This document shows positions 1 to 14,202 of a stretch of 14,202 nt of DNA, piece after piece. Below the pieces are notes generated by a model, which was not told the DNA's origin, searched no databases, and saw only the letters and a program-made list of their open reading frames with translations. Origin of the DNA: a virus. Where the stretch lies: UHGV virus genome UHGV-0304018; one strand, 5' to 3'. A program made the position numbers and the translations under genes. Position 1 is the first letter of the stretch, and every line of letters begins with the position of its first letter.

Positions 1-46
1 GTAATTTCCACATTGACCTCCGGATCTGTTTCTCCCCCTATTTATA

Positions 47-75
47 ATCTTATCATACTGTCAACAGAATGTCAA
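47..75 (-). promoter_or_regulatory. Candidate leftward promoter inside the conserved 110-nt repeat block (copy A)
   Basis: On the minus strand: TTGACA (rc of 70..75), 17-nt spacer, TAAGAT (rc of 47..52). It points at a GTG start at position 11 whose ORF runs off the left window edge. Confidence 0.35.
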
Positions 76-382
76 TGAGAATTATTATCATTCAGGTGTG
101 CTATAGGTGCAAGCAAGTCCACAGCAAAGGGGTAAGCATTATTAATGGCCCCTACCGTGTCAAAACCAGAATCACTTATAGCATTTATGCAATAAGATTG
201 TCAATGGCCCACAATGGATGGAGAGCACTTTTTGTTAAAACTTTGGAGGGTGTTAAACTCAAACCTCATGAGAGGCCCTACAACGCGATTTAAGCATCAG
301 GTAATGCAATTCACTAGGGAGTATGGTTTATCTCGCTGTAGGCGCTAAAATCGCGCTTATTTTCGATTTATGAGTGTCATAT

Positions 383-404
383 TACGTGCATGCACACGCG
401 CGCG
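383..404. repeat. 22-nt strictly alternating purine-pyrimidine tract (tacgtgcatgcacacgcgcgcg) in repeat copy A
   Basis: Read directly. Copy B has an analogous 19-nt tract at the equivalent place with a different sequence. Confidence 0.8.
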
Positions 405-506
405 GAATCCCTCGCTTAAACGGTCCGGATTGGAAACAGAAGTCTCTTATCCGGACTCCACATTATAAAGCTCCGTGCTATAGCACTACGCTCCCCACAC
501 ACAATT

Positions 507-541
507 GGGTGACGTGTCATGTATGGAATACATTGTCACCC
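507..541. promoter_or_regulatory. Large imperfect palindrome GGGTGAC-N21-GTCACCC with nested ATGTAT/ATACAT arms; candidate operator or RNA hairpin (copy A)
   Basis: Arms are exact reverse complements; identical in both repeat copies and flanked by CACACA runs. Confidence 0.5.
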
Positions 542-606
542 CACACAGGCCGACGTAGTCGGTTTAGCTGTATAGCTAAAGTCACAGAGTGACCCACACA
601 CATATT

Positions 607-645
607 GCCTAAAGAGTCGCTAATGCTCTTTAGGCTTTCATTTGT
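607..645 (+). terminator. Rho-independent terminator, rightward (copy A)
   Basis: Perfect 10-bp stem gcctaaagag / ctctttaggc with a 9-nt loop, followed by tttcatttg. Confidence 0.6.
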
Positions 646-698
646 GGGTTAAGCTTTTCCCTTAGAAAACCTTCCCCACTCTCTGATCCCTCCCCATT

Positions 699-721
699 CC
701 CCCCTGGGGGGTTAGGGGGGG
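699..721. repeat. Homopolymer cluster C6-T-G6-TTA-G7
   Basis: Read directly: cccccctggggggttaggggggg, just left of the iteron array. Confidence 0.9.
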
Positions 722-763
722 ATCTATTGTGTGGTCTATTACTTTATCTATTAGTGTCAAATA

Positions 764-949
764 TTTTTACAGGTAGTAGTAAAAGATTTTGACAGGTAGT
801 AGTAAAAATATTTTACAGGTATGGGCCGTATTATTGGTGGGGTAGTAAAATATTTTGACAGGTTAGGGGCTGTGTATCATGGGTGCAATGACTGCAAAAC
901 AGGAGAGTATGACTGTATAAACACACAGGTGTGAAAATTCTTTACAGGT
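764..949 (+). repeat. Array of five iteron-like direct repeats, core TTTKACAGGT; candidate origin of replication or protein-binding array
   Basis: Cores at 765-774, 787-796, 811-820, 854-863 and 940-949; the first two units also share acaggtagtagtaaaa; spacing of the first three is 22-24 bp. No ORF on either strand. Confidence 0.6.
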
Positions 950-1141
950 TAGTGCGGTAATATTTACCGGGGTGTGGTGCCTGAGTATGACTGAAAGGGG
1001 TTGTAGGAAATCCCAACAGGTGGGGGAGTGATTGCATCTGATTTTTTACTCTGTATTAGCCGTCAATTGACCTATTTTGACTAGCAAACCTCTCTCCTCT
1101 CTCTTTGCTTTGATTTTCTCTCATGTGTGGGAAATATGCAG

Positions 1142-1167
1142 ATCAACACCCGTTGATTTTATCAACA
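1142..1167. promoter_or_regulatory. Overlapping palindromes ATCAA-N6-TTGAT-TTT-ATCAA including a DnaA-box-like TTATCAACA
   Basis: Read directly; TTATCAACA (1159..1167) is one mismatch from the TTATCCACA consensus. Confidence 0.3.
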
Positions 1168-1726
1168 GTTATGTTGACCGGGTGTCATAACTATGGCCCC
1201 TGGGGCAGTCCATCCTTCCCTCACACAGGACAATGAATACATAAAGAACATGAAAGACTGTTCACACCAACACGCCGATAAATTGCCTGAAGAGGCTTGC
1301 ATGGGGTTATTGTTGTGTGGGTAATGGTGATCATGCTAACAGATTATGTTAATCAGATGTAAATTCCGGTTTTGTGGTCTACAGAGAACAAACTATACTG
1401 GTTAAATGATCAGGGGAATGACTACAAAACAATCAAAAATGTGGGATATAGCCATCTATACGTCTAATGTGCTGTGTGGGGTGTTAGTGCATGCTTACAT
1501 GTAAGTCATTGATTTGAAGGGTTGGGAAAATTGCATTTAACATAATAGATCTTATCTACACTAATAAAGCGCACTACAAAATCTGATTTAAAAATCATGA
1601 TCAGTGGGCACAGAATTTACGTACAGCCACCTGAATAAATAATGTGCACAACATACAGCAAAGCTTAAGAATTAACATAATAGCAACGTGGTCGGCAGTG
1701 GTGTGATATTTGAGAATTGTTAGAAG

Positions 1727-1763
1727 AAAAAAGGGAGGTGGGGGAGCGCCTGCCTGGCACCTC
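1727..1763 (-). terminator. Possible weak leftward terminator in the gene-free region
   Basis: 6-bp stem GAGGTG / CACCTC with a 17-nt loop, followed on the minus strand by CC and T6. No matching promoter was found. Confidence 0.3.
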
Positions 1764-2302
1764 AGACGAACATCTGACGGGTATTAATACCGCTAATGGA
1801 TATTTCTGACACCCACACCCAAGACCGCTTTCAGCACACAGCCATACACCGCACAGGATGCAATTGTGATAACAAAAAATGGGGGTGTAATAGGGTAGGT
1901 CATCTTTCATCAAAATCACTTCTACGACGTTCCCAGAGTGATAACAAGAAAACAGGCCTCTAAGATTATCTGTGCCTCGTTTTTAGCTTTTTGTGTGGTT
2001 ACCAGGTGAATAGGAAATGTTAAAAACTGTTCATTTTATGCACAAACTAGTCAGGGTGATACTACAAATTGAGGTGTAAGAAATCCAGCTGCAGATAATC
2101 TTGCAGCCAGATTTTGCAGTTTTTGAGGGTATGTTAAATTTGACAAAAATAGAGAAAAGGCCAATTGAGCTAAGCTATTGATTTTATTAGTATTGCAAAA
2201 AAGGGTTACATCCTCTCTCTTACACTGTCAACAATGCCCAAAACCATTAAATCAATAAATAGGCATTAAATACCCATTAAATAGGGGTTAAATAGGGGAT
2301 AA

Positions 2303-2328
2303 ATAAAAAAGGGGCCGTGATGGCCCCC
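2303..2328 (-). terminator. Rho-independent terminator ending the leftward membrane-protein gene
   Basis: Perfect hairpin ggggcc-gtgat-ggcccc (2311..2327) followed on the minus strand by T6, 17 nt after the stop codon at 2345. Confidence 0.75.
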
Positions 2329-2344
2329 TGGTGGGTTGGTGTGG

Positions 2345-3055
2345 TTATTTCATAGGAGAGGTTTCTACGGCTTCACCGTACATCTCATTAAGCATCTTCA
2401 ATGCTTCCATATCAACATTCAGGAGTGTTCCCTCAGTGATCCAGGCGTTATTCTGCCATGCTTCGTGAACGAGTTCACCGTTATACCATCGAGCCGTTCG
2501 TGTAGTTTCTATGCTTACACCGTCCATGTGGCGCATCTGTAGCCAACGATCATTGCCTTTTACATCCTTGCACCATACCGTCAGAACATCTTTATTTTTC
2601 CCAGTAGGTGCCCCACTGTTAACCGCCACTTTAATCTGGTTGCAAGCACCTTTTTCTGCATGATTCCACAGCCAGGCGTGAATCTGGTATTTATCTGTGC
2701 ATCCTATATCTTTAGAGAGATCGCAATCTAGCACACCATAAATATATTTATATGCTTTTACCCTGTCCTCCCATGTAAGATCGGAGACGTTAACCACTTC
2801 TTCATGCTGTGAGTTCACCTCTTCCACATTTGCAGCTGTATTTCCTGTGGGAAGAGAGAAGTAGGCCCAGCCAATAAGCCCCGCGACTATAACCAGACTT
2901 GTTATGACTGCTCCAGGGTGCTCTTTATATTGTGCATGCAGCTTTTTAATATCTTTCCCTACACTCATCACTAGTAATAGAGGCAAAGCAATTACTAACA
3001 CCCATGGACCAAATACAATGCAAGCTAATAGTGTAACAATAATTCCCTTAAACAT
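2345..3055 (-). CDS. Membrane protein, 236 aa: two N-terminal TM helices plus a ~165-aa extracytoplasmic domain with four Cys; function unknown
   Basis: ORF track; hydrophobic segments at about aa 5-30 and 50-68; SD AAGGGG 7 nt before the ATG; own terminator. The superinfection-exclusion or defence role is inference only. Confidence 0.75.
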   Translation of the reverse strand: MFKGIIVTLLACIVFGPWVLVIALPLLLVMSVGKDIKKLHAQYKEHPGAVITSLVIVAGLIGWAYFSLPTGNTAANVEEVNSQHEEVVNVSDLTWEDRVKAYKYIYGVLDCDLSKDIGCTDKYQIHAWLWNHAEKGACNQIKVAVNSGAPTGKNKDVLTVWCKDVKGNDRWLQMRHMDGVSIETTRTARWYNGELVHEAWQNNAWITEGTLLNVDMEALKMLNEMYGEAVETSPMK

Positions 3056-3373: not shown

Positions 3374-3450
3374 AAACTCCGCTCAATGATGATTAATACA
3401 AAATCTAAGACTGCCAGACCTATTAAAAATACTTTGCCTCCTTTGCCCAT
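3370..3450 (-). CDS. Possible 26-aa hydrophobic peptide (MGKGGKVFLIGLAVLDFVLIIIERSL), translationally coupled to the HTH gene
   Basis: Hand translation; below the ORF-track length cut-off; single predicted TM segment; stop overlaps the downstream ATG. Confidence 0.25.
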   Translation of the reverse strand: MGKGGKVFLIGLAVLDFVLIIIERSL

Positions 3451-3451
3451 C

Positions 3452-3574
3452 TCACACCTCCACACACAGAGCTAACATCAGGGCTAAAACTCCAACCACC
3501 TCAATTGCCTTAACAATGTGTGGGTGATGAAACCTGGCCTTTTGCCATGCGCTGGCACTGTTCTTGATACCCAT
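3452..3574 (-). CDS. Possible 40-aa peptide with hydrophobic C-terminus (MGIKNSASAWQKARFHHPHIVKAIEVVGVLALMLALCVEV)
   Basis: Hand translation; SD AAGGTGA 5 nt before the ATG; the duplicated leader element lies immediately upstream. Confidence 0.3.
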   Translation of the reverse strand: MGIKNSASAWQKARFHHPHIVKAIEVVGVLALMLALCVEV

Positions 3575-3582
3575 AACTATCA

Positions 3583-3603
3583 CCTTTTGCGAGAAGTTGA
3601 TTT
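3583..3603 (-). promoter_or_regulatory. Second copy of the duplicated leader element, immediately 5' of the ribosome-binding site of the 40-aa ORF
   Basis: Read directly; identical 18-nt core to 3063..3083. Confidence 0.5.
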
Positions 3604-3638
3604 GTTTGCTCGGTTGGGTGCTTTCACTGGCTATGCCA

Positions 3639-3655
3639 GGTGACTTTCAGTCACC
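3639..3655. promoter_or_regulatory. Palindrome GGTGAC-tttca-GTCACC; same half-site as the repeat palindromes
   Basis: Read directly; sits in the divergent control region between the leftward module and the rightward capsid promoter. Confidence 0.4.
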
Positions 3656-3744
3656 CCTTTGGGTGTCTCTATCAATGCTACCCTTCCTTGATTCGAACTA
3701 TAACCGGGTAAATCCCCGGAAAACATTGATATTGATCAAAAGAT

Positions 3745-3775
3745 ATCTATCACGAATGAAAAAGTTATGATAGAT
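3745..3775. promoter_or_regulatory. Inverted repeat ATCTATCA-N15-TGATAGAT; candidate operator
   Basis: Read directly; about 90 bp upstream of the consensus capsid promoter; a further ttgatagagg half-site follows near 3800. Confidence 0.4.
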
Positions 3776-3861
3776 GCGATGAGATGACGTATTGATGGGA
3801 TTGATAGAGGTCTGAAAATACCGTTACTACGCTAATTATTAGAATTTATATAATAAGGGGG

Positions 3862-3890
3862 TTGACAATTTGAGAGAATACTGATATAAT
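3862..3890 (+). promoter_or_regulatory. Perfect consensus sigma70 promoter: TTGACA, 17-nt spacer, TATAAT
   Basis: Read directly: -35 at 3862..3867, -10 at 3885..3890, with an AT-rich upstream stretch. Confidence 0.8.
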
Positions 3891-3896
3891 ATACAT

Positions 3897-4370
3897 ATAC
3901 CGTAAATCAATGGTGAAAGTGATTTGCCGTATTTTCCTCCAAAGTAAAGGCGACCAGGTAGCGGTGCCGCCTTATAAATAACACTACCCTGATCATCGTT
4001 GAGTGGTCGATTAATTCTCCTATTGGGCTAGTTATCCACACAGTTTTCTTTTGCGGGTTTTCTGTGTGGGTAGCTATCCCGAAAGGTATTTCCCCGCTGA
4101 TGTGACCGCAGCCTGAACTGATCCGGGGGAGTGCCTTTCGTGATAGTGCTCTCTAGTAACCGTAACCCATACTGTGAACTATCATCCGACTGTTGTCGGT
4201 TTCCCCATGTGGAATAGCCCCCGCTTGGCTACGGTGCGGGGCTATCTCCCTCTCCTTGTATCAATTTCCCTTTAGATTTCCGGCATAACTTTTCGGCCCG
4301 AGCCTGTCGTGGTTTGAGAGGTTATACCGGAACTCTTTGAGGGGAGTTAATTTAAATCGCAGGTGATCAA
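3897..4370 (+). other. ~470-nt untranslated, hairpin-rich leader between the consensus promoter and the first capsid gene; candidate cis-regulatory RNA
   Basis: No plausible ORF; several strong stems, e.g. ccacacag-N18-ctgtgtgg (4036..4069), ccgac-tgtt-gtcgg (4187..4200), tagcccccgc-N11-gcggggcta, aaggcg-N16-cgcctt. Folds were judged by eye. Confidence 0.5.
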
Positions 4371-4711: not shown

Positions 4712-5764
4712 TTGAAGATGGCTAAGAAAGAATTTGAAGTTCGCGATCTGTGTGGTCTGATTAAAGACATCCCGCTGGATAACCAGATTATTTCAGCAAT
4801 GGATATCTTCAACACTACAGCCCTGTGCAATACCTTTAAATTTGAATATGACAAAGTTCGCCAGGTGAAACAAACCGCTTTCGGTCAGTATCCGCGCTAC
4901 GGTGAACAGATGGCTACCATTACCGCAGATGAGCGTGAAACGGGCACGGGTGATATGGCATTCACTGCCGCATCAAGTGCTATTTATCCTTCTGACTGGC
5001 AAGGTATCCGTGTTCCGGGCAAAGATTCCGAAGAGAATTTAGAGTCTGTAACCGCTCGTCGTGTTATTCAACTGGGTGAAGGACTACGCGCGACCCATGA
5101 AGAAGCACGCCAGCTTGCTCTCTTTGAGAACAAAATTATCCTTACCAAGGGTAAAGAACTGAATGTGTGCGAACTGCTGGGCGCACAGCAAACCACTTCA
5201 GAAGTGGATCTAGCTCAAGATATCCTTAAACAGCTGCAGGACCTGGTTGCACTGAGCAAGGTTAAACAGCGTGGTGTTGTTCGCGCTCTGCGTGGTTTCA
5301 CCCTGTTCTGCCGTGCTGAGCTCTTTGCTGCAATTCAGACTGATGAACTGCTCCGTAAAGTGCTGTTGTTCGGCAATCAGAATATTACCGACAAAGGTCT
5401 GATGTTCCCTGAGGATATTCTGCCGGGCTTCCCGACCTTCCGCATTCCGGGCTTAGCTCTGCGTGTGGTGCAAATGGATAGTCTGCCAGAGAATACTGCT
5501 TATCTGGTCCCACAGTTCCAGCCGCATGCGTTAGGCGATATGGTGGGCGTTTATACTCAATTTTTCGGCCCTTGCGCTCGCAACCTGAAGCTTGCAAACG
5601 GCGCTGCACGTGAAGCTTTCATGTATATGGAAGAGTCCAGAGGTAAACGAGAAATCTTCATTGAATCCTCTTATGCTTTCATGAACATGATGCCTGAGGT
5701 TGTGGTTAAAGTGAGTGTTAGTAACTCCGCCGCCGCTGCTCTGGCAAAAGCCAAGGCTAAATAA
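4712..5764 (+). CDS. Putative major capsid protein, 350 aa
   Basis: ORF track; strong AGGAGG site 6 nt before the ATG; size and position after the decoration-like gene; followed by a terminator. Fold not verified. Confidence 0.85.
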   Translation: MKMAKKEFEVRDLCGLIKDIPLDNQIISAMDIFNTTALCNTFKFEYDKVRQVKQTAFGQYPRYGEQMATITADERETGTGDMAFTAASSAIYPSDWQGIRVPGKDSEENLESVTARRVIQLGEGLRATHEEARQLALFENKIILTKGKELNVCELLGAQQTTSEVDLAQDILKQLQDLVALSKVKQRGVVRALRGFTLFCRAELFAAIQTDELLRKVLLFGNQNITDKGLMFPEDILPGFPTFRIPGLALRVVQMDSLPENTAYLVPQFQPHALGDMVGVYTQFFGPCARNLKLANGAAREAFMYMEESRGKREIFIESSYAFMNMMPEVVVKVSVSNSAAAALAKAKAK

Positions 5765-6129: not shown

Positions 6130-6234
6130 CGCTCTCGGGAAGAGCTATAAGCGATTCTAACGAATAACTGCCCTGTATTTTCTGCAGATTTTAAGCAGGG
6201 CAACGAAAAGATTCATTTTTGAGGCATGTTCAAT

Positions 6235-7457: not shown

Positions 7458-7470
7458 TAGCCCCTCTCTC
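7449..7470. terminator. Possible bidirectional terminator between convergent genes
   Basis: Hairpin ggggc-ctgata-gcccc overlapping the stop of 6999..7457, with T-rich sequence on both strands. Confidence 0.4.
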
Positions 7471-7475
7471 TGAGA

Positions 7476-7625
7476 TTAGATAAACTGGGATAATTCCCGC
7501 ACAAGCTTTATCTCCTGCCGTTCCTTCTGCTTCTCTTCTAACCATTTCCGGCCTTCTTCAGTCTTGAGAAACTTGCGAGCGTGAATCTTGCGGTTATTTC
7601 GCTTAATGGCATTGGCATTCTTCAT
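7476..7625 (-). CDS. Small very basic protein, 49 aa (MKNANAIKRNNRKIHARKFLKTEEGRKWLEEKQKERQEIKLVRELSQFI)
   Basis: Hand translation; below the ORF-track cut-off; SD AAGGGG before the ATG; candidate promoter just upstream; its start context is nearly identical to that of the membrane-protein gene. Confidence 0.5.
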   Translation of the reverse strand: MKNANAIKRNNRKIHARKFLKTEEGRKWLEEKQKERQEIKLVRELSQFI

Positions 7626-7659
7626 AGTGTCACCCCTTCTTATGACCTGCTACGCCTAC

Positions 7660-7688
7660 ATTATAGCCAAAATCCTGAATTCAGACAA
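7660..7688 (-). promoter_or_regulatory. Candidate leftward promoter: TTGTCT, 17-nt spacer, TATAAT
   Basis: -10 is rc of 7660..7665 and -35 is rc of 7683..7688; about 27 nt upstream of the start of the 49-aa ORF. Confidence 0.5.
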
Positions 7689-8085
7689 TAGAACTCTTTT
7701 TGATGCCGTGTTGGTGGTAAGGAGAAACACTAGCATCATTTAGGGGTTTTCAGGTTTTCATGTAGATCAGCTTTATCAGGTACCTGCTTATATTCCGGTG
7801 CGGTGAAACCGTGTGGGCATCTCTTAGTTTTGGCTTATCACTTATTGCCGGGTAAGAGAGCAGAACCACCAACGTTTGCCTGTTTATCACCTTGGTTAGG
7901 GTGAGGCCGCATCAAGCCCAGTGCTCTACAAGATACTCCAGATCATAGACGCTTATTTTCTCTTAGAGGTCGCGTTAACCTCTGGGATCTGTTTCCACTG
8001 ATGAATATAAAACAAACGGTATGAATGATCAAACGTGAACAGAAAGAGAGTTGACTTTCTCTCTGCAGATGATCACACTTGCCAG

Positions 8086-8097
8086 GCGAGAAGTTGA
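8086..8097. repeat. Third copy of the 12-nt core gcgagaagttga
   Basis: Read directly; lies 3' of the tape-measure gene, overlapping a possible rightward terminator hairpin (agcccc-N19-ggggct followed by ttttatt, 8097..8130). Confidence 0.5.
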
Positions 8098-8142
8098 GCC
8101 CCAAAGGATGACAAATCCCGAGGGGCTTTTATTATCAACCAG

Positions 8143-10284
8143 TTAGAAAAGCTGATTAGCTTCCTGTGTGGCTTTCCAATCCAGCTGATCGCTGACTTCC
8201 TTCTGGATCACCCTGGCAATTCCCCCCTCATCAATGGTTATCTCCCACTTGCCGGAGATCTCACCCTGCGGAACTACACTGATTTGAGTCGGCTGATAGC
8301 CTCCATTCTGAATAGCAATACCACCCGTTGGTGTTGGTCTGGTAATGTAGCGTCCTGCGTCCAGACGATAATCAAGGCCAAGGAAGCTAGAAGCACTATT
8401 AACCATACTGGTTAACCATTCAGGATGTTTAGCTCCTTCCTGCCGCTGATTATCAGGATTCTGCCAGTAGGAATCTAAGCTATTTGCAATGTCAAATCCT
8501 GTCAAAACAATCCCTGCCGGACCTGCAAATCTTCCTCCAAGTCTGCCTGCTTTCCCGATAAAGCCGCCTCTACCTGGTCTGCCTTTGCCTGCTGTGCCTC
8601 CAGTGCTGATATCACCAACACCGACTAAAGCACTAAGCGCCGCTTTAAGTTTCCACAGCATGGAAATAAGGCCGCCAACCATGCCAGCAATGCTTGTTGC
8701 AACCTTCAGGCCTAACAGGGCGGTCACAACCTGGCCAATCTTCTCGCCTGCATCCTGTGCGGTCCAGCCTAACGTCTCACCAATGCCTTTGGCGATCTTC
8801 TTAGTCCACCACCAAGCCCAGTTGACCCAAAAATAAATTTCATGCATTGCCTCGCCTAACATAACTCCGAGAGATTTGGCATCTTCACCTGAGCTACTGA
8901 AAATTGAGGATAAATCTTCAAAGATATAAATAAGGGATTCTGACAGGGTAATGACGCCATCCGCAGGATCCACAACACCCATAAAGGATTGCTTTAGTTT
9001 AAAAAACTGGTTGCTCATTCTCTGCAGTGCCACTTCAGGCTGTTGCATAGATTTAGCAAAAGCGTCAGTTTCTTTTGCAGCACCCCAGATTTTCACTAGA
9101 GAGGGAAGAAGCTTGTCCAGGGTGATTTTGCCATCTGCCATGGCTTTATCGAATTCCTGGGCACTCTTGATGATTCCGGCATCAATAGCGGCCTGTTGAA
9201 AATCCTGTTGTGAGCCTGCAAAGGCTTCTGACAGCTGGCCACGCAGCTCTTCCGCAGCTACTCTTCCTTTTGAAGCCATTTGTTGGACCGCAACAAGCGC
9301 CCTGTTCTGTTGCTCGCCAGTAGCACCCACTGAGCGGCCTTTAATCGCCATAGCCTCAAAAAGAGCCTGCTTATCAGATTCCTTCATGGTGGGAGTAGCG
9401 GCAGCAAAACGCATATAGCCACCCTCCATCTCACGCTGATCCATCCCGTAGGTGTTGGCTGTGTTCTCGATAAAAGCCATCTGCTGGTCAGTCTTGGCTT
9501 TATCATCCTTGTTCTGAGCAAGCAAACCATAATAGGCTGAGTTATGGTCAGATTGAGCGCTCATAGCACCACTAACAGCTCTCTGAATACCCCATCCTGC
9601 AGCGGTCAGGCCAATGGCTATCTTGCCTAAAGCACTGTTAAGCTTGCCGATATTGTTATGCACCTTGCTCGCACCTGCTGCCAGTTTATCTAGCTTGCTT
9701 TGAAAGGTGGTGGCATCTCTAGAGGCCATCTTCATTTCAGCTCTGAGTCGGGCCATTTTCTGATTATAGGTCTGCAGGTTAATAGCCCCTTTAGCATAAT
9801 CAGCATTAACTCTCTGGATTCTGCTTTGGAACTGAGCAACCAGGGATCCATCAAACATGCTGCTGATTCGTGCACTGTTGGCCCCTACACGTGCTTTTCT
9901 GTGCTGAACATCTCCAACACTACGATCTAACAGTTTTTGTTGTCTGGCGGCTTCTCTGGCTTGTTGTTGGTAGAACTTGCGCATAGAGTTAAGTTCGGCA
10001 TTGTTGCCCCCGGTCAGACGGCTGACAGCCTGAGCACGTTGTTTCTTCTGTGCTTCCTGTTGTTTCCTCTGAGCTCTGGCTATCTGCTCTTCCACCTTAG
10101 CGCGTGTTCTTTGTGTTCTGAGCACAGCCTGATTAGATTTAAAATCAGCTTTAGCTATATCGTCGGTAGCTTTCTTCCAGGATTTTTTATAATCCTCAAG
10201 CCGTTTAACTTCTTTTCGCCAGGAGGATTTATCAGAGTCCCAGTAAATAACGTTTGTTAGTCTGGCTACTTCCTTCATTGCCAT
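8143..10284 (-). CDS. Tail tape measure protein, 713 aa
   Basis: ORF track; charged coiled-coil-like N-terminal third, central region with the conserved core recalled for tape-measure proteins (GRVAAEELRGQLSEAF), and hydrophobic and Gly-rich segments near the C-terminus; SD GAGG before the ATG. Confidence 0.85.
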   Translation of the reverse strand: MAMKEVARLTNVIYWDSDKSSWRKEVKRLEDYKKSWKKATDDIAKADFKSNQAVLRTQRTRAKVEEQIARAQRKQQEAQKKQRAQAVSRLTGGNNAELNSMRKFYQQQAREAARQQKLLDRSVGDVQHRKARVGANSARISSMFDGSLVAQFQSRIQRVNADYAKGAINLQTYNQKMARLRAEMKMASRDATTFQSKLDKLAAGASKVHNNIGKLNSALGKIAIGLTAAGWGIQRAVSGAMSAQSDHNSAYYGLLAQNKDDKAKTDQQMAFIENTANTYGMDQREMEGGYMRFAAATPTMKESDKQALFEAMAIKGRSVGATGEQQNRALVAVQQMASKGRVAAEELRGQLSEAFAGSQQDFQQAAIDAGIIKSAQEFDKAMADGKITLDKLLPSLVKIWGAAKETDAFAKSMQQPEVALQRMSNQFFKLKQSFMGVVDPADGVITLSESLIYIFEDLSSIFSSSGEDAKSLGVMLGEAMHEIYFWVNWAWWWTKKIAKGIGETLGWTAQDAGEKIGQVVTALLGLKVATSIAGMVGGLISMLWKLKAALSALVGVGDISTGGTAGKGRPGRGGFIGKAGRLGGRFAGPAGIVLTGFDIANSLDSYWQNPDNQRQEGAKHPEWLTSMVNSASSFLGLDYRLDAGRYITRPTPTGGIAIQNGGYQPTQISVVPQGEISGKWEITIDEGGIARVIQKEVSDQLDWKATQEANQLF

Positions 10285-10285
10285 T

Positions 10286-10522
10286 TTATACCTCGCCCTG
10301 TCTTAAAGATTTTGATAATGAAATAGCCCTTTTCAGGGCCTCTTTATCAATATTATATTTCTCCGCCAGCTCTTCGATTGAGAGGCCTTCTGTGTGGGAG
10401 CTACTTTTAATAATGGTGGACCCCTCTTTCGCTGCCTCTGGCAGGTGACCTATTGTCACCCCTTCGGGCGTGTCTTCGGAGTCCTTAACCAGTTTTTGAT
10501 AAATCTTTTCGTAGATATTCAT
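10286..10522 (-). CDS. Hypothetical protein, 78 aa, immediately upstream of the tape-measure gene
   Basis: ORF track; SD AAGG 8 nt before the ATG; stop is 1 nt from the tape-measure ATG. A tail-assembly-chaperone role is inferred from position only. Confidence 0.7.
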   Translation of the reverse strand: MNIYEKIYQKLVKDSEDTPEGVTIGHLPEAAKEGSTIIKSSSHTEGLSIEELAEKYNIDKEALKRAISLSKSLRQGEV

Positions 10523-12257: not shown

Positions 12258-13121
12258 TTATTTTGTAATGGTTAATTCGCCTTTTACAAGCTTGCAGTTG
12301 TTCCACAATCTTTCTTTCGGGGCATCATAGCCATGACTAATATAATCGATGATAATTGTTTTACCTCTTTTAGCTACATGTTGAGCCACCTTAAGGGCCT
12401 GTTCTGTTAAATGCCAATAATCATCTTCTTTCCAGATTCTACCCTCAACGGTGCCTTTAATTTTATCCATCACCTCCGGCCCGTAAAATGCATCTCGCAA
12501 TTCAGAGAGTTTAATGCTCTTCCGATCCTTAAATGTTGCCTGAATCCCTTTGTATTTGGCGTTCATCTCATCACTTGTCAGAATCGGATAACCGTGCTCA
12601 TCTTTCTCACGTTTGCCAGCGTCTCTAAAGCGCTCTCTGCGCTCGTTCTTAGGTTGGGTAGGCAATTGCACCACCTCGGCCTTTTTAGCTTGCTGTGTGG
12701 GTTGTTTTGGGGCTTCCTGTTGATTATCGGGGGCCTCTTTACTAGATCCCACACTGTCGGAGGTTTTAATACCCTGCTCATCACACATCTTGCCAAGCTG
12801 ATCAGGGGTAATTAGCAGTTTGTAATGATTAGATTTGCCTTTACTTTTAACTATTGAAATAAGCCCGGCATTTTCTAGAGATTTAATCGAGTTAATAACT
12901 GTCGGTCTTGAAACATCATAATCGTCTGCTAATCTCTGTTCAGAGATAAATATTTCACAACCTGCAGCATTAAAACTTGCCATCTCACCGTAAATTGTCA
13001 TTTCCAACAAGTTTAAGTGAAATCTTTCTTTATTGGTTGTAGTTTTTGCAATCGGATTTTTAAAAATGTATTTGATGAAACGTTTAAAAAGGGGAGTAAA
13101 ATTTTCCCCGTAATTACTTGC
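12258..13121 (-). CDS. Winged-helix DNA-binding protein, 287 aa (N-terminal wHTH, low-complexity linker, C-terminal domain); replication-initiator-like or antirepressor-like
   Basis: ORF track ORF 12258..13181, start re-placed at the internal ATG at 13121 (GGGGGA site 4-5 nt upstream), which removes the overlap with 13138..13353; wHTH-like segment ISEQRLADDYDVSRPTVINSIKSLENAGLISIV. Confidence 0.75.
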   Translation of the reverse strand, partial: ASNYGENFTPLFKRFIKYIFKNPIAKTTTNKERFHLNLLEMTIYGEMASFNAAGCEIFISEQRLADDYDVSRPTVINSIKSLENAGLISIVKSKGKSNHYKLLITPDQLGKMCDEQGIKTSDSVGSSKEAPDNQQEAPKQPTQQAKKAEVVQLPTQPKNERRERFRDAGKREKDEHGYPILTSDEMNAKYKGIQATFKDRKSIKLSELRDAFYGPEVMDKIKGTVEGRIWKEDDYWHLTEQALKVAQHVAKRGKTIIIDYISHGYDAPKERLWNNCKLVKGELTITK

Positions 13122-13137
13122 CATAATTCCCCCATAA

Positions 13138-13353
13138 TTATTTATTAATGTTATTGGTGTATTTAGCCAGTTCCCGCTCAAGGCGAATGCAATTTAGTTT
13201 TAAAATTGCTTCTTCAATGTGTGGATATTCTCCTTTATGTTTACGAATGAATGCATAAACGGAAGTTTTGCGGAAGTTCCCCTTAAGTACGTTCTCGACG
13301 ATTTCGTCAGTAGTCCAGTTTACCAGCTGGCTGATCGGTCCGGTTTTAGCCAT
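13138..13353 (-). CDS. Small hypothetical protein, 71 aa; possible regulator
   Basis: ORF track; perfect AGGAGG site 8 nt before the ATG. Confidence 0.75.
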   Translation of the reverse strand: MAKTGPISQLVNWTTDEIVENVLKGNFRKTSVYAFIRKHKGEYPHIEEAILKLNCIRLERELAKYTNNINK

Positions 13354-13486: not shown

Positions 13487-13636
13487 TCAGACATTCGTCA
13501 AATTGTCAACAATCTTTTTGTATTTATCTATCATTTTTTCTTCAAGATTGTCGATTGCAGTTACTCCGGCTATGTAGGCAACACCGCACCACAGTACAGC
13601 CAGGTTGATGATCGCTATTGCATCAGTAATTTCCAC
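13487..13636 (-). CDS. Possible small single-TM protein, 49 aa, GTG start; its start lies inside the conserved 110-nt repeat block
   Basis: Hand translation (VEITDAIAIINLAVLWCGVAYIAGVTAIDNLEEKMIDKYKKIVDNLTNV); GGAGG 5 nt before the GTG; competes with a probably spurious plus-strand ORF 13472..13672. Confidence 0.35.
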   Translation of the reverse strand: MEITDAIAIINLAVLWCGVAYIAGVTAIDNLEEKMIDKYKKIVDNLTNV

Positions 13637-13671
13637 ATTGACCTCCGGATCTGTTTCTCCCCCTATTTATA

Positions 13672-13700
13672 ATCTTATCATATTGTCAACCAATTGTCAA
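13672..13700 (-). promoter_or_regulatory. Candidate leftward promoter inside the conserved 110-nt repeat block (copy B)
   Basis: Same TTGACA / 17-nt / TAAGAT arrangement as copy A, upstream of the small ORF 13487..13636, which has a GGAGG ribosome-binding site. Confidence 0.35.
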
Positions 13701-13914
13701 TGAGAATTATTATCATTTAGGTGTGCTATAGGTGCCATAGCCTGCACAGCAGACACAAGCAAGCCCACAAGGGAGGGCACTTTTTGCCTTAAGCGCTCTA
13801 AAATCGATTCTAACGCGATTTAGAGGTCAGGTAATGCAATTGCACTACTCACACTAGTTAATGCAGCCAGAAGGCCATTTAGGGGGCTTATTTTCGATTT
13901 ATGAGTGTATCCTT

Positions 13915-13933
13915 TATATATGTGTGCGTGCAC
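13915..13933. repeat. 19-nt alternating purine-pyrimidine tract (tatatatgtgtgcgtgcac) in repeat copy B
   Basis: Read directly; followed by the palindrome cccgcgcggg. Confidence 0.8.
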
Positions 13934-14089
13934 CCGCGCGGGAGACTCTTTGCTGCCTCCTTCCGGCGCTGGCAAGCTTTCGGCAGCGGTCCACATGTGG
14001 GCCTCATGCTGACGCATTCGCCGGACCACACACAGACCCGAAGGGCTTAGCCATGGGCTAAGGTGCCGTAGGCACTCCCACACACAATT

Positions 14090-14124
14090 GGGTGACGTGT
14101 CATGTATGGAATACATTGTCACCC
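14090..14124. promoter_or_regulatory. Same GGGTGAC-N21-GTCACCC palindrome (copy B)
   Basis: Identical to 507..541. Confidence 0.5.
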
Positions 14125-14137
14125 CCACACACATATT

Positions 14138-14176
14138 GCCTAAAGAGTCGCTAATGCTCTTTAGGCTTTCATTTGT
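14138..14176 (+). terminator. Rho-independent terminator, rightward (copy B)
   Basis: Identical 10-bp stem, 9-nt loop and T-rich tail as 607..645. Confidence 0.6.
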
Positions 14177-14202
14177 GGGTTAAGCTTTTCCCTTAGAAAA
14201 CC

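What the first reader, a model, noticed from the sequence alone, without database searches (positions are those of the whole stretch)
600..2344. About 1.7 kb with no credible ORF on either strand
Apart from one Cys-rich, junk-like 84-aa ORF, this region is non-coding, which is long for a phage-like element. Beyond the iterons it contains tandem TTAAATAGGGG units (about 2276..2297), many CACAC/GTGTG runs and a weak leftward terminator (1727..1763). It may encode one or more non-coding RNAs or hold cos/pac and origin functions.
Basis: seen in the sequence. Interest (0 to 1): 0.5.

Follow-up and report, generated by a model that had tools for sequence, protein, structure and literature searches.

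The report
Gene-free control region of plasmid satellite
The stretch really has no genes: it is part of a conserved 2.3-kb control region of a small E. coli plasmid that carries phage head and tail genes, and it holds the plasmid's replication origin, a likely dimer-resolution site, and short sequence blocks shared with an unexplained gene-free region of rV5-like phages.

Summary
All 25 relatives examined have it. They are ~13.5-kb circular E. coli plasmids that encode a capsid protein, a tape measure, a Dit protein and an iteron-type Rep.

- **Not protein-coding.** Substitutions show no 3-base periodicity. The 84-aa ORF is intact in only 4 of 11 copies.
- **Under constraint.** Diversity in 1250-2160 is 0.040, against 0.124 at fourfold-degenerate sites.
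- **No sign of a structured RNA in the core.** There is no Rfam hit, folding z-scores are near 0, and there are almost no compensatory changes.

The anatomy, left to right:
- terminator-like hairpins;
- iterons (752-1021) whose type tracks the Rep type;
- an AT-rich segment with a DnaA-box-like site;
- a ~1-kb conserved core with a dif/psi-like Xer site (1535-1562);
- several 12-19-nt blocks shared specifically with the ORF-free box of Vequintavirus (rV5-like) phages, which has its own dif-like site;
- 11-bp repeats;
- the neighbouring gene's terminator.

TGTGTGG is 12-fold over-represented and strand-polar. The most likely function is a cis-acting DNA hub (origin, Xer site, helper-related sites). 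Only the origin is well supported.

The parts
47..88 (.). Divergent promoter-like pair at the left edge of the gene-free region. The leftward promoter is TTGACA-17-TAAGAT with a TG extension (75-47, minus strand) and faces the 49-aa/Rep/tail operon. A weaker rightward candidate lies at 61-88. TGTCAA direct repeats lie at 59-64 and 70-75.
   Evidence: Promoter scan. The sequence is conserved in all relatives.
380..600 (+). Array of hairpin cassettes, each ending in CCCACAC(A). Cassette C is about 395-500, cassette A is 501-546, and the triple-hairpin cassette B is 547-599. The cassette set and order differ between plasmids and between the two copies inside this window.
   Evidence: Fold z-scores of -3 to -7. 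In triple-hairpin modules 96% of cells pair, 11 of 15 pairs show double changes, and there are no G-U cells.
607..635 (+). Perfect 10-11-bp hairpin followed by TTTCATTTGT. It looks like a plus-strand terminator that closes the cassette array.
   Evidence: Energy -16.2 kcal/mol, z = -4.5. Conserved in most relatives.
696..723 (.). C-run/G-run hairpin just before the iterons.
   Evidence: The fold is no better than shuffles (z = 0.12). Homopolymer lengths vary between relatives.
752..863 (+). Four cognate 22-23-bp iterons (752-774, 775-797, 798-820, 841-863), consensus GTAGTAAAAnATTTTnACAGGT.
   Evidence: The iteron type co-varies with the Rep type in relatives.
928..1021 (+). Three single iteron-like units (928-949, 950-973, 1001-1021). 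They match iteron types that are the multi-copy cognate type in other family members.
   Evidence: Comparison of iteron regions across 26 sequences.
1030..1200 (.). AT-rich segment with TGATTTT three times (1039, 1110, 1153) and a one-mismatch DnaA box, TTATCAACA, at 1159-1167 inside a GTTGAT...ATCAAC palindrome. Probably the unwinding and host-factor part of the origin.
   Evidence: Fold z = -3.2 for 1101-1250. The function is inferred.
1100..2160 (.). Conserved non-coding core under purifying selection.
   Evidence: pi = 0.040 for 1250-2160, against 0.124 at 688 fourfold sites and 0.032 at codon positions 1+2. No 3-base periodicity (78/74/67). Long invariant blocks in 25 sequences.
1282..1302 (+). 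Block ATTGCCTGAAGAGGCTTGCAT, shared with the Vequintavirus gene-free box. The phage has the GCCTGAAGAGG core twice and a diverged third copy.
1524..1535 (+). Block GGGAAAATTGCA, shared with phage slur16 and lying next to the Xer-like site.
   Evidence: present in slur16, absent as an exact word in nomo.
1535..1562 (-). dif/psi-like Xer core site: AGTGTAGATAA-GATCTA-TTATGTTAAAT (XerC arm, 6-bp centre, XerD arm).
   Evidence: XerD arm 11/11 and XerC arm 7/11 against E. coli dif (dif sequence from PMC2731167). The centre matches 5 of 6 bases of pSC101 psi, read from the plasmid record. 12 of 1000 shuffles give any such site. Invariant in 25 sequences. A near-identical variant occurs in phage WildeMaa and a canonical one in Vequintavirus.
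1609..1643 (+). Block CAGAATTTACGTAC..., shared with Vequintavirus; TTTACGTA also occurs beside the WildeMaa site. It overlaps a promoter-like TTTACG-16-AATAAT.
1700..1728 (+). Block GGTGTGATATTTGAGAATTGTTAGAAGAA. It holds the longest exact match to Vequintavirus (19 nt).
   Evidence: nhmmer E = 0.0033.
1727..1763 (-). Not supported as a terminator.
   Evidence: z = -0.19. Not called by the scan. 100% conserved in the first 11 copies aligned.
728..1998 (+). Five plus-strand TGTGTGG copies (728, 1124, 1314, 1473, 1992). They belong to a plasmid-wide polar motif, with 13 copies on the plus strand and 6 on the minus strand per monomer.
   Evidence: The motif is also enriched in Vequintavirus slur16 (25 against 7.3 +/- 2.5).
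2256..2305 (+). 11-bp tandem repeats TAAATAGGGGT/TAAATACCCAT, about 4 units. Copy number is variable, and some relatives have insertions between units.
2309..2329 (-). Intrinsic terminator of the leftward HTH_7 / 236-aa operon.
   Evidence: Energy -15.2 kcal/mol, z = -2.7, followed by a U-run.
12258..13181 (-). Rep initiator gene. It acts on the iterons, is highly variable, and its type tracks the iteron type.
   Evidence: HTH_36 / DnaD_N-like domains. phrog_270 replication initiation protein, E = 4.7e-12. Co-variation with iterons.

Best explanation
Window 600-2344 is most of a 2.3-kb block of cis-acting DNA. It serves a ~13.5-kb circular E. coli plasmid that looks like a phage satellite: it encodes its own major capsid protein, tape measure, Dit and tail-completion proteins, but no portal or terminase. 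The block does not encode a protein. By the tests available it is not a structured RNA either.

How it most likely works, step by step:

1. Replication origin (well supported). The plasmid's Rep (12258-13181) binds the four 22-23-bp iterons at 752-863. It opens the adjacent AT-rich segment with the DnaA-box-like site (1030-1200) and starts replication.

2. Dimer resolution (sequence-supported, function inferred). Host XerC/XerD act on the dif/psi-like site at 1535-1562 to turn plasmid multimers back into monomers. The conserved flank on the XerC side would serve as the accessory region.

3. Helper-related sites (inferred). The rest of the constrained core (about 1100-2160) is a dense set of protein-binding sites. 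At least five of them (1124, 1282, 1524, 1609, 1700) are also present in the unexplained ORF-free box of rV5-like (Vequintavirus) phages. Those phages have the nearest relatives of the plasmid's capsid and tape-measure proteins, and their box has its own dif-like site and repeats. I infer that these shared sites let the plasmid use, or respond to, factors of a Vequintavirus helper, for replication or for the start of packaging.

4. Polar motif (function open). The plus-strand TGTGTGG(G) motif is enriched in both the plasmid and the phage. Its polarity suggests a signal read along the DNA, for example in replication, recombination or packaging.

5. Right-hand edge. The 11-bp repeats and the terminator at 2309-2329 close the neighbouring operon.
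For: Family and anatomy.
- All complete relatives are 13.2-13.9-kb circular E. coli plasmids with the same gene order and the same unannotated 2.2-2.5-kb stretch.
- The exact 49-aa neighbour protein is indexed in 1,657 blocks of the assembly collection.

Not coding.
- Substitutions in the core fall 78/74/67 over the three phases, against 52/32/139 in the capsid gene.
- No ORF is conserved.

Constraint.
- pi = 0.040 in 1250-2160, against 0.124 at 688 fourfold-degenerate sites and 0.032 at codon positions 1+2.

Not a structured RNA.
- No Rfam hit.
- z-scores near 0 on both strands in 1250-2300.
- 0-2 compensatory pairs against 3-14 broken pairs per 200-nt window.

Origin.
- Iterons are present.
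- At least 7 iteron types broadly track the Rep types across 26 sequences.
- Rep matches phage/plasmid initiator families.
- A DnaA-box-like site and TGATTTT repeats lie next to the iterons.

Xer site.
- The XerD arm is 11/11, the XerC arm 7/11 and the centre 6 bp.
- 12 of 1000 shuffles give such a site.
- It is invariant in 25 sequences.
- The pSC101 psi site was read from the record: GGTGCGCGCAA-GATCCA-TTATGTTAAAC.
- Seuratvirus WildeMaa has the same XerC-arm variant, AGTGCAGATAA-CGTCTA-TTATGTTAAAT, with conserved flanks.
- The plasmid encodes no recombinase, and dimer and trimer records exist.

Helper link.
- The capsid and tape-measure proteins hit only rV5-like myoviruses, at 22-26% identity.
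- slur16 has an ORF-poor 3.2-kb box, drawn as 'non-coding' in the rV5 paper (PMC3606486) and conserved in 122 phage records.
- That box holds GGTGCGCATAA-TGGGTA-TTATGTTAAAT.
- Shared exact 12-mers between core and box number 20, against a median of 1 and a maximum of 5 in 14 control phage segments.
- Reciprocally, plasmid segments 601-2400 share 17-20, against 0-5 elsewhere on the plasmid.
- The longest shared words are 19, 14 and 14 nt.
Against: - No function was tested. Everything beyond sequence anatomy is inference.
- A uniform constraint over about 900 nt is unusual for a set of binding sites and would fit an RNA gene equally well. The family is young (about 4-12% divergence), so the covariation tests have little power.
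- The XerC arm has 4 mismatches to dif. No ArgR, ArcA or PepA site could be recognised, and the accessory flank has no similarity to psi.
- Similarity to the phage box is limited to short blocks in a different order and in mixed orientation. BLAST and nhmmer give only marginal E-values for single blocks.
- The protein link to Vequintavirus is remote. Rep has no phage homologue by tblastn.
- No helper has been shown. No viral contig carries the element.
- The iteron/Rep correlation is imperfect. Some plasmids with a 53-76% identical Rep keep the same iterons.
Confidence: 0.55

Rival explanations
1. The conserved core (about 1250-2160) is transcribed into one or more non-coding RNAs, for example a long regulatory or antisense RNA or an Rcd-like checkpoint RNA next to the Xer site. 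The RNA sequence, not DNA sites, is what selection preserves.
For: - Constraint is strong and fairly even: pi = 0.024-0.047 across four sub-windows against 0.124 at fourfold sites.
- A promoter-like TTTACG-16-AATAAT lies at 1616-1643(+), in a block conserved in two phage groups.
- A T-run follows a conserved G+C-rich block on the minus strand at 1722-1763.
- From my own knowledge, ColE1 cer contains a promoter for the small RNA Rcd.
Against: - No Rfam family at E <= 1 in the window or in the phage box.
- Folding energies are indistinguishable from shuffles on both strands.
- Covariation terms are about 0, with far more broken than compensated pairs.
- There is no strong promoter and no called terminator inside the core.
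- The blocks shared with the phage occur in different order and orientation, which fits sites rather than one transcript.
Confidence: 0.22
2. The core is chiefly the packaging-recognition region (pac or cos) through which a helper phage's terminase packages the plasmid. The blocks shared with the phage are terminase-binding sites.
For: - The element encodes head and tail parts but no terminase or portal, so it must borrow them.
- Sequence blocks are shared specifically with a conserved gene-free box of the phages that have the nearest capsid and tape-measure relatives.
- rV5 is reported as circularly permuted, which implies packaging that starts from a pac site (PMC3606486).
Against: - There is no match to lambda or P2 cos.
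- Contig ends of 10 assemblies fall at unrelated positions.
- No virion-derived contig of the element was found in the viral collection.
- The function of the phage box is itself unknown. Its iteron-like repeats and dif-like site look more like a replication and resolution region.
Confidence: 0.15
3. Much of the region is a landing pad for small selfish palindromic (REP/BIME-like) cassettes tagged by GTGTGG, and has no function for the plasmid.
For: - Cassettes come and go next to the motif at 380-600. The same kind of cassette is gained or lost at 3621-3668, 10426-10475 and other intergenic sites.
- The architecture, a GTGG tag plus a palindrome, is that of REP elements (PMC3733652).
- Five TGTGTGG copies lie in 728-1998.
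Against: - The core at 1250-2160 has no insertions or deletions among 25 copies and is as constrained as non-synonymous sites.
- Hairpin content in the core is no higher than in shuffles.
- This explanation fits 100-600, not 1100-2160.
Confidence: 0.08
4. A protein gene is hidden by frameshifts, by unusual decoding, or by being split into very small ORFs.
For: One 84-aa ORF and several ORFs of 30-55 aa exist.
Against: - There is no 3-base periodicity of substitutions.
- The ORFs are broken in most relatives.
- There is no Pfam or PHROG hit.
- No gene caller annotates anything there in about 25 records.
Confidence: 0.02

Closest known systems
Iteron-controlled plasmid origins (pSC101, F, R6K, P1 type)
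   Same: Tandem ~22-bp direct repeats lie next to an AT-rich segment and a DnaA-box-like site. A winged-helix-type Rep is encoded nearby. Repeat sequence and Rep specificity change together.
   Different: Rep lies about 1.1 kb away, across a promoter and a cassette array, and is not adjacent. Each plasmid also keeps single iterons of other specificity types. Origin activity has not been shown.
Xer sites: chromosomal dif, pSC101 psi, ColE1 cer
   Same: The site is 28 bp with an exact XerD arm, a 6-bp centre that matches 5 of 6 bases of psi, and the conserved inner ATAA of the XerC arm. It lies on a plasmid that has no recombinase of its own and for which dimer and trimer records exist.
   Different: The XerC arm is only 7/11 to dif and 5/11 to psi. 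No recognisable ArgR, ArcA or PepA accessory sites were found. The nearest look-alikes are in virulent phages (Vequintavirus, Seuratvirus), not in plasmids.
The 'non-coding' box of phage rV5 and other Vequintavirus genomes
   Same: Both are ORF-free for 2-3 kb and repeat-rich, and both contain a dif-like site. They share 12-19-nt blocks and TGTGTGG enrichment (PMC3606486).
   Different: There is no extended or colinear homology, only short blocks. The phage box has no assigned function, so the comparison transfers no function.
Satellite P4 and helper P2 (cis sites of the helper copied by the satellite)
   Same: From my own knowledge, P4 carries the P2 cos site and helper-responsive late promoters and can live as a plasmid. 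Here too a small plasmid-like element shares cis-element-sized sequences with a candidate helper.
   Different: No cos similarity was found. The candidate helper is a large virulent myovirus. The element carries its own capsid and tape-measure genes. No helper dependence has been demonstrated.
REP/BIME palindromic elements
   Same: Short palindromic units carry a conserved GT(A/G)G-type tag at one end. They are clustered in mosaics and also found singly, and they vary in presence between strains.
   Different: The units differ in sequence (same fold, different stems). Copy number is low. They occur on a plasmid, not on the chromosome: 0 chromosomal places in 5,426 E. coli genomes. One copy lies in frame inside an ORF. 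No associated transposase is present.

Membership tests
Iteron-type plasmid replication origin | Three or more direct repeats of about 17-23 bp in tandem | tested here: met
   Four 22-23-bp units at 752-863, plus three single units up to 1021.
Iteron-type plasmid replication origin | A cognate initiator (Rep) gene on the same replicon | tested here: met
   The 307-aa protein at 12258-13181(-) has HTH_36 / DnaD_N-like domains and matches phrog_270 replication initiation protein at E = 4.7e-12.
Iteron-type plasmid replication origin | Iteron sequence co-varies with Rep specificity among relatives | tested here: met
   At least 7 iteron types broadly follow the Rep identity classes in 26 sequences. 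There are exceptions in which a partly different Rep keeps the same iterons.
Iteron-type plasmid replication origin | Adjacent AT-rich unwinding element and DnaA box | tested here: inconclusive
   TTATCAACA at 1159-1167 has one mismatch, and TGATTTT occurs three times. The DnaA-like count is inflated by the CCACA motif.
Iteron-type plasmid replication origin | Supports Rep-dependent replication | not testable with these tools
   Needs a mini-replicon experiment.
Xer recombination site (dif/cer/psi) | 11-bp XerD arm TTATGTTAAAT | tested here: met
   11/11 at 1535-1545 on the minus strand.
Xer recombination site (dif/cer/psi) | 11-bp XerC arm related to GGTGCGCATAA | tested here: inconclusive
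   AGTGTAGATAA is 7/11 to dif, with the inner ATAA kept. The same variant occurs in phage WildeMaa.
Xer recombination site (dif/cer/psi) | Central region of 6-8 bp | tested here: met
   GATCTA, 6 bp, matches 5 of 6 bases of the psi centre GATCCA.
Xer recombination site (dif/cer/psi) | About 150-200 bp of accessory sequence with ArgR or ArcA and PepA sites on the XerC side (plasmid sites) | tested here: inconclusive
   The flank 1563-1760 is conserved. It has no similarity to the psi flank, and by eye I found only half-matches to the ARG and ArcA boxes.
Xer recombination site (dif/cer/psi) | Recombination by XerC/XerD | not testable with these tools
   Needs a dimer-resolution assay in xer mutants.
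Structured non-coding RNA | Match to a curated covariance model | tested here: not met
   No Rfam hit at E <= 1 in the whole window. No tRNA or tmRNA.
Structured non-coding RNA | Folding energy beyond shuffled controls | tested here: not met
   For the core 1250-2300, z runs from -2.2 to +1.5 on both strands. The criterion is met only at 351-900 and 1101-1250.
Structured non-coding RNA | Compensatory base changes | tested here: not met
   Core: 0-2 compensated against 3-14 broken pairs per 200 nt. Power is limited by low divergence.
Structured non-coding RNA | Own promoter and terminator, and a detectable transcript | not testable with these tools
   Only a 9/12 promoter-like site at 1616-1643 and no called terminator in the core. 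No expression data are available.
cos/pac packaging site | Similarity to a known cos site, or common physical ends | tested here: not met
   No lambda or P2 cos. Contig ends fall at unrelated positions.
cos/pac packaging site | Recognition by a helper terminase | not testable with these tools
   The helper is unknown. This needs transduction and virion-DNA end mapping.
REP/BIME elements (applies to the cassettes, not the core) | Palindromic unit of 20-40 bp with a GT(A/G)G tag at one end | tested here: met
   Cassettes end in CCCACAC (GTGTGGG on the other strand) next to perfect hairpins. The tag definition comes from PMC3733652.
REP/BIME elements (applies to the cassettes, not the core) | Many near-identical copies in the host genome, with an associated RAYT transposase | tested here: not met
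   The units differ in stem sequence. There are no chromosomal copies in 5,426 E. coli genomes. The plasmid has no transposase.
Protein-coding gene | A conserved open frame with codon-position bias of substitutions | tested here: not met

The most novel reading that the evidence does not exclude
The gene-free region is the cis-acting interface through which an undescribed, widespread family of E. coli plasmid satellites exploits virulent rV5-like (Vequintavirus) phages. On this reading:
- it copies a set of binding sites, and a Xer site, from the phage's own unexplained non-coding box, which would then be the phage's replication, resolution or packaging centre;
- satellite and helper share a strand-polar TGTGTGG(G) signal that is read along the DNA, for example in priming, packaging or protection from a nuclease;
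- the region is bordered by a new kind of mobile triple-hairpin DNA cassette tagged by that same motif.
Probability: 0.25. Interest if true: 0.8.

Novelty: new variant of a known kind. Interest (0 to 1): 0.6.

Why it matters
About one third of this small element is non-coding. The core of the region studied here evolves about three times more slowly than silent sites, so it carries information that gene annotation misses.

If the shared blocks really are helper-recognition sites, three things follow:
- The ORF-free box drawn in the rV5 genome paper would get a first functional handle. In the paper library I searched I found no function assigned to it.
- The helper of a plasmid family indexed in 1,657 blocks of the public assembly collection would be identified.
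- We would have a tractable case of a satellite of a large virulent coliphage that lives as a plasmid.

The dif-like sites in the plasmid and in two groups of virulent phages suggest that host Xer recombination is used more widely by such elements than is usually assumed.

The polar TGTGTGG motif and the structure-conserved, sequence-variable hairpin cassettes are directly testable leads on DNA-level signals.

Tried and rejected
- **Known RNA families.** Rfam at E <= 1 on the whole window and on the phage box gave nothing. ARAGORN gave nothing.
- **Close DNA relatives among phages.** Megablast of the whole window gave nothing. Sensitive blastn of 1-2344 gave a single 50-nt hit, which turned out to be a Xer-like site in phage WildeMaa.
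- **More distant relatives for covariation.**
  - The capsid protein found no loci in the viral or species-representative genome collections.
  - In 5.8 billion proteins it found only E. coli proteins of 82% identity or more.
  - DNA patterns found 4 metagenome contigs and no genome or viral contigs.
  - Covariation power therefore stayed low.
- **lambda cos, P2 cos, Chi.** All absent.
- **Common contig ends as a clue to cos.** The ends fall at unrelated positions.
- **Small conserved ORFs.** None found. An AAGGAGG present in some relatives near 1600 is followed by no usable start codon and is absent from the window.
- **The 'DNA translocase FtsK' gene annotated next to the phage box.** It has no Pfam support and no similarity to the plasmid's HTH_7 protein. 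Dropped.
- **The 79-kb contig.** It is a Tn3/TEM-associated fusion whose junction lies outside this region.
- **psi accessory region against the plasmid flank.** No similarity.
- **nhmmer profile of the core against the phage.** It finds only the same short blocks and no extended homology.
- **Rep against phages by tblastn.** No match.
- **Telomere-resolvase site.** I thought of it because of CACACAATTG and an alternating purine-pyrimidine tract. I rejected it because all records are circular and there is no protelomerase-sized gene.
- **Type III toxin-antitoxin or CRISPR-like array for the cassettes.** Rejected. The units are not identical repeats, there is no nuclease gene, and there are no G-U pairs.


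Full report
**What the window is.** The window matches a family of small circular E. coli plasmids of 13.2-13.9 kb, for example pE275a_13, pVTB448v-4 and p7_14_47A-2, at 91-94% identity over the matched parts. All share one gene order:
- a rightward operon with a 111-aa protein, the major capsid protein (4712-5764), an 86-aa protein, a Dit-like protein and a tail-completion protein;
- a leftward operon running from a 49-aa protein through a Rep-like initiator (12258-13181) to a tape measure protein (8143-10284);
- a short leftward pair, an HTH_7 protein and a hypervariable 236-aa protein at 2345-3055.

There is no portal, terminase, integrase, partition ATPase or recombinase. The window is about 1.04 monomers long. 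Positions 1-671 recur at 13626-14202, but as a different version of the same stretch. Two contigs from related samples each carry one of the two versions. The exact 49-aa protein next to the region is indexed in 1,657 blocks of the assembly collection, mostly on 10-20-kb contigs. Three literature searches found no description of the family.

**Checking the observation.** Nothing longer than 84 aa is open in 600-2344.
- The Cys-rich 84-aa ORF is intact in 4 of 11 aligned copies. No ORF of 18 aa or more behaves like a gene.
- The gene-free stretch actually extends from the end of the 49-aa gene to 2344, about 2.3 kb. It is unannotated in every relative.
- The iterons, the 11-bp repeats and the GTGTG-type runs are real.
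- The proposed terminator at 1727-1763 is no better than shuffled sequence (z = -0.19), and the scan does not call it. The real leftward terminator is 2309-2329.

**Is it functional, and is it coding?** I aligned 11 whole monomers. Substitutions in 1062-2311 fall 78/74/67 over the three phases, against 52/32/139 in the capsid gene. Pairwise diversity is 0.124 at 688 fourfold-degenerate sites of the backbone genes, 0.032 at codon positions 1+2, and 0.040 in 1250-2160. In the four sub-windows of 1250-2160 it ranges from 0.024 to 0.047. The core is therefore non-coding but almost as constrained as amino-acid-changing positions. With 25 sequences, long stretches are invariant, for example 1532-1562, 1575-1600 and 2081-2124.

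**Is it a structured RNA?** I found no positive evidence.
- Rfam finds nothing at E <= 1, and there is no tRNA.
- In 150-nt windows, folding energy beats shuffles only at 351-900 (z down to -7) and at 1101-1250 (z = -3.2). From 1250 to 2300, z runs from -2.2 to +1.5 on both strands.
- Consensus folding of 20-23 distinct sequences gives covariation terms near 0. Each 200-nt window has 0-2 compensated pairs against 3-14 pairs broken by substitutions.

Divergence is low, so this is weak negative evidence, not proof.

**Anatomy, left to right.**

1. *47-88:* divergent promoter-like sites. The leftward one is a good extended -10 promoter for the Rep/tail operon.

2. *About 100-600:* a mosaic, variable segment. 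From about 380 it becomes an array of cassettes, each made of one to three perfect hairpins and ending in CCCACAC(A).
   - The cassette set and order differ between plasmids: B'-A-B, A-B, B'-A, A-B', B' alone, A alone, D, or none.
   - I picked nine triple-hairpin modules by eye, which inflates the figures that follow. In them 96% of cells pair, against 70% in shuffles and 26-49% when the partner is slid.
   - Also, 11 of 15 pairs carry changes on both sides, and no cell is a G-U pair. That favours DNA palindromes over RNA.

3. *607-635:* a strong hairpin followed by a T-rich run (z = -4.5).

4. *752-863:* four 22-23-bp iterons, then three single iteron-like units up to 1021. Across 26 sequences there are at least seven iteron types, and they broadly follow the Rep type. 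The single units in this window are the cognate type of other plasmids.

5. *1030-1200:* an AT-rich segment with TGATTTT three times and a one-mismatch DnaA box in a palindrome.

6. *1100-2160:* the constrained core.

7. *2256-2305:* 11-bp repeats, variable in number.

8. *2309-2329:* the terminator.

**The Xer-like site.** TTAACATAAT-type words recur at 1344, 1535, 1670 and 2129. At 1535-1562 the minus strand reads AGTGTAGATAA-GATCTA-TTATGTTAAAT.
- E. coli dif is GGTGCGCATAA-TGTATA-TTATGTTAAAT, and its XerD arm and inner positions are the best conserved parts (PMC2731167).
- pSC101 psi, read from the plasmid record, is GGTGCGCGCAA-GATCCA-TTATGTTAAAC.
- The window site therefore has an exact XerD arm, a 7/11 XerC arm that keeps the inner ATAA, and a psi-like 6-bp centre.
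- Only 12 of 1000 shuffles of the window contain any site of that quality. The site is invariant in 25 sequences.
- The plasmid has no resolvase of its own, and dimer and trimer records exist.
- The one sensitive-blastn hit to a phage is an intergenic site in Seuratvirus WildeMaa. It reads AGTGCAGATAA-CGTCTA-TTATGTTAAAT and is followed, at the same distances, by ACAAAATCT and TTTACGTA.

I could not recognise accessory-factor sites, and no function was tested.

**The link to rV5-like phages.** By tblastn the tape measure and the capsid protein match only ~135-145-kb myoviruses, mostly Vequintavirus records for the tape measure, at 22-26% identity.

Vequintavirus slur16 has a 3.2-kb stretch with no ORF above 80 aa. 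The rV5 genome paper draws such a box as 'non-coding' and gives it no function (PMC3606486). It is 90-96% conserved in 122 phage records and almost always unannotated. On its minus strand it carries a near-canonical dif-like site, GGTGCGCATAA-TGGGTA-TTATGTTAAAT, which is also present in phage nomo. It also carries families of short repeats.

Exact words shared between the plasmid core and this box are strongly enriched:
- There are 20 shared 12-mers, against a median of 1 and a maximum of 5 in 14 other 3.3-kb segments of the same phage.
- Reciprocally, plasmid segments 601-2400 share 17-20, against 0-5 elsewhere on the plasmid, for two phages.
- The blocks are TGTGTGGGAAA (1124), ATTGCCTGAAGAGG (1282), GGGAAAATTGCA (1524), the XerD arm, CAGAATTTACGTAC (1611) and GGTGTGATATTTGAGAATTGTTA (1700, with 19 nt exact).
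- They occur in a different order and in mixed orientation. BLAST and nhmmer recover only these short blocks.

This is what shared binding sites look like, not shared descent of a whole region. No Rfam family matches the phage box either.

**The TGTGTGG motif.**
- It occurs 22 times in the window against 1.75 expected. The wider consensus is T-GTGTGG-G, and every relative has 14-19 copies.
- Per monomer, 13 copies are on the plus strand and 6 on the minus strand. Three of the six are the cassette boundaries at 495-600. Outside the array the split is 13:3 (my binomial estimate is p of about 0.02).
- Orientation follows the DNA strand, not the direction of the genes.
- The motif is also enriched in the first 50 kb of slur16, with 25 copies against 7.3 +/- 2.5, split 18:7. 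Six same-strand copies lie in the gene-free box.

I do not know what reads it. A polar signal for priming, recombination or packaging is a guess.

**Interpretation.**
- Shown: the region is real, family-wide, non-coding and constrained, and it contains iterons that track Rep.
- Supported by sequence only: a Xer core site, and short blocks and a polar motif shared specifically with the Vequintavirus gene-free box.
- Inferred: the core works as DNA. It would serve origin accessory functions and multimer resolution, and it would provide sites through which a Vequintavirus-type helper, or host factors it uses, act on the plasmid.

The main rival is a sequence-constrained RNA, which only expression data can settle. 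Packaging-site and selfish-cassette readings remain possible for parts of the region.

**Novelty.** Iteron origins and Xer sites are ordinary. The following appear to be new, at least in the paper library I could search:
- their combination in a 2.3-kb gene-free hub of a plasmid that carries capsid and tail genes;
- the specific sharing of sites with the unexplained rV5 box;
- dif-like sites in virulent coliphages;
- the polar heptamer;
- the structure-conserved, sequence-variable hairpin cassettes.

Noticed in passing
window 1-671 versus 13626-14202: The window covers more than one plasmid monomer, and the two copies of the overlap differ cassette by cassette: C-A-B in the first copy, C'-B'-A in the second. 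There is also a 52-nt unit difference and 90% identity in the first 126 nt. Contigs L013 and L014 from related samples each carry one version. This means either a mixed population joined by the assembler or a real heteromultimer.
   Followed up: partly
window 380-600; also 3621-3668 and 10426-10475, and indels in relatives near 6130 and 11450: Small hairpin cassettes, often three consecutive 3-7-bp stems, are gained, lost or reordered between plasmids. One is a clean 48-nt indel at 3621-3668. One sits in frame inside the 78-aa ORF, and the 61-aa alleles lack it. Stems co-vary perfectly without G-U pairs. The cassettes carry a GTGG-type tag like REP elements, but their sequences differ.
   Followed up: partly
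whole window; TGTGTGG at 728, 1124, 1314, 1473, 1992, 3517, 4063, 4749, 6299, 8165, 10391, 12694, 13218 (+) and 495, 541, 594, 3460, 4036, 10566 (-): The heptamer is 12-fold over-represented and strand-polar regardless of gene direction. It is also about 3.4-fold over-represented and strand-biased in Vequintavirus slur16. What reads it is unknown.
   Followed up: partly
window 928-1021 and the same position in relatives: Downstream of its four cognate iterons, each plasmid keeps single iterons of the types used by other family members. These may be recombination relics or decoys for competitors' Rep proteins.
   Followed up: no
window 3374-4370 and 7458-8142: Two further gene-poor stretches bring coding density down to about 66%. 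The stretch 3374-4370 is also constrained (pi = 0.042-0.082) and may hold a 40-43-aa gene at about 3452-3583(-) that shares its ribosome-binding leader with the 236-aa gene. The stretch 7458-8142 is highly variable.
   Followed up: no
window 3862-3890 and 4025-4080: A perfect sigma-70 promoter (TTGACA-17-TATAAT with TG) heads the capsid operon. About 135 nt downstream lies a 19-nt-arm inverted repeat whose inner ends are CCACACAG / CTGTGTGG. It may be an operator or a leader hairpin.
   Followed up: no
window 2345-3055 (-): The 236-aa gene beside the region is hypervariable: column identity is 0.24-0.48 and lengths range from 157 to 236 aa in relatives. It has no Pfam or PHROG match. It may be under diversifying selection.
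   Followed up: no
L034 (slur16) 1834-1861 (-); L035 (nomo) 2660-2687 (-); L036 (WildeMaa) about 1501-1528: dif-like Xer sites lie in gene-free regions of virulent coliphages of two unrelated groups, Vequintavirus and Seuratvirus.
   Followed up: partly
L029 (79-kb contig, GCA_043168025.1): One copy of the element is joined to a Tn3-family transposon carrying a TEM-type beta-lactamase, and to ABC-transporter and pentapeptide-repeat genes. The junction is near the tape-measure end, not in the gene-free region.
   Followed up: no
window 59-75, 197-205 and 384-404: TGTCAA (ATTGTCAA in relatives) occurs twice at the divergent promoters and once about 130 nt away, which looks like an operator arrangement. 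A 21-nt perfectly alternating purine-pyrimidine tract lies at 384-404.
   Followed up: no
window 2287-2327 versus L034 47543-47585: The terminator with its TAAATA-rich leader resembles a terminator after an Ig-like-domain gene of slur16 (80% over 41 nt, nhmmer E = 0.019).
   Followed up: no
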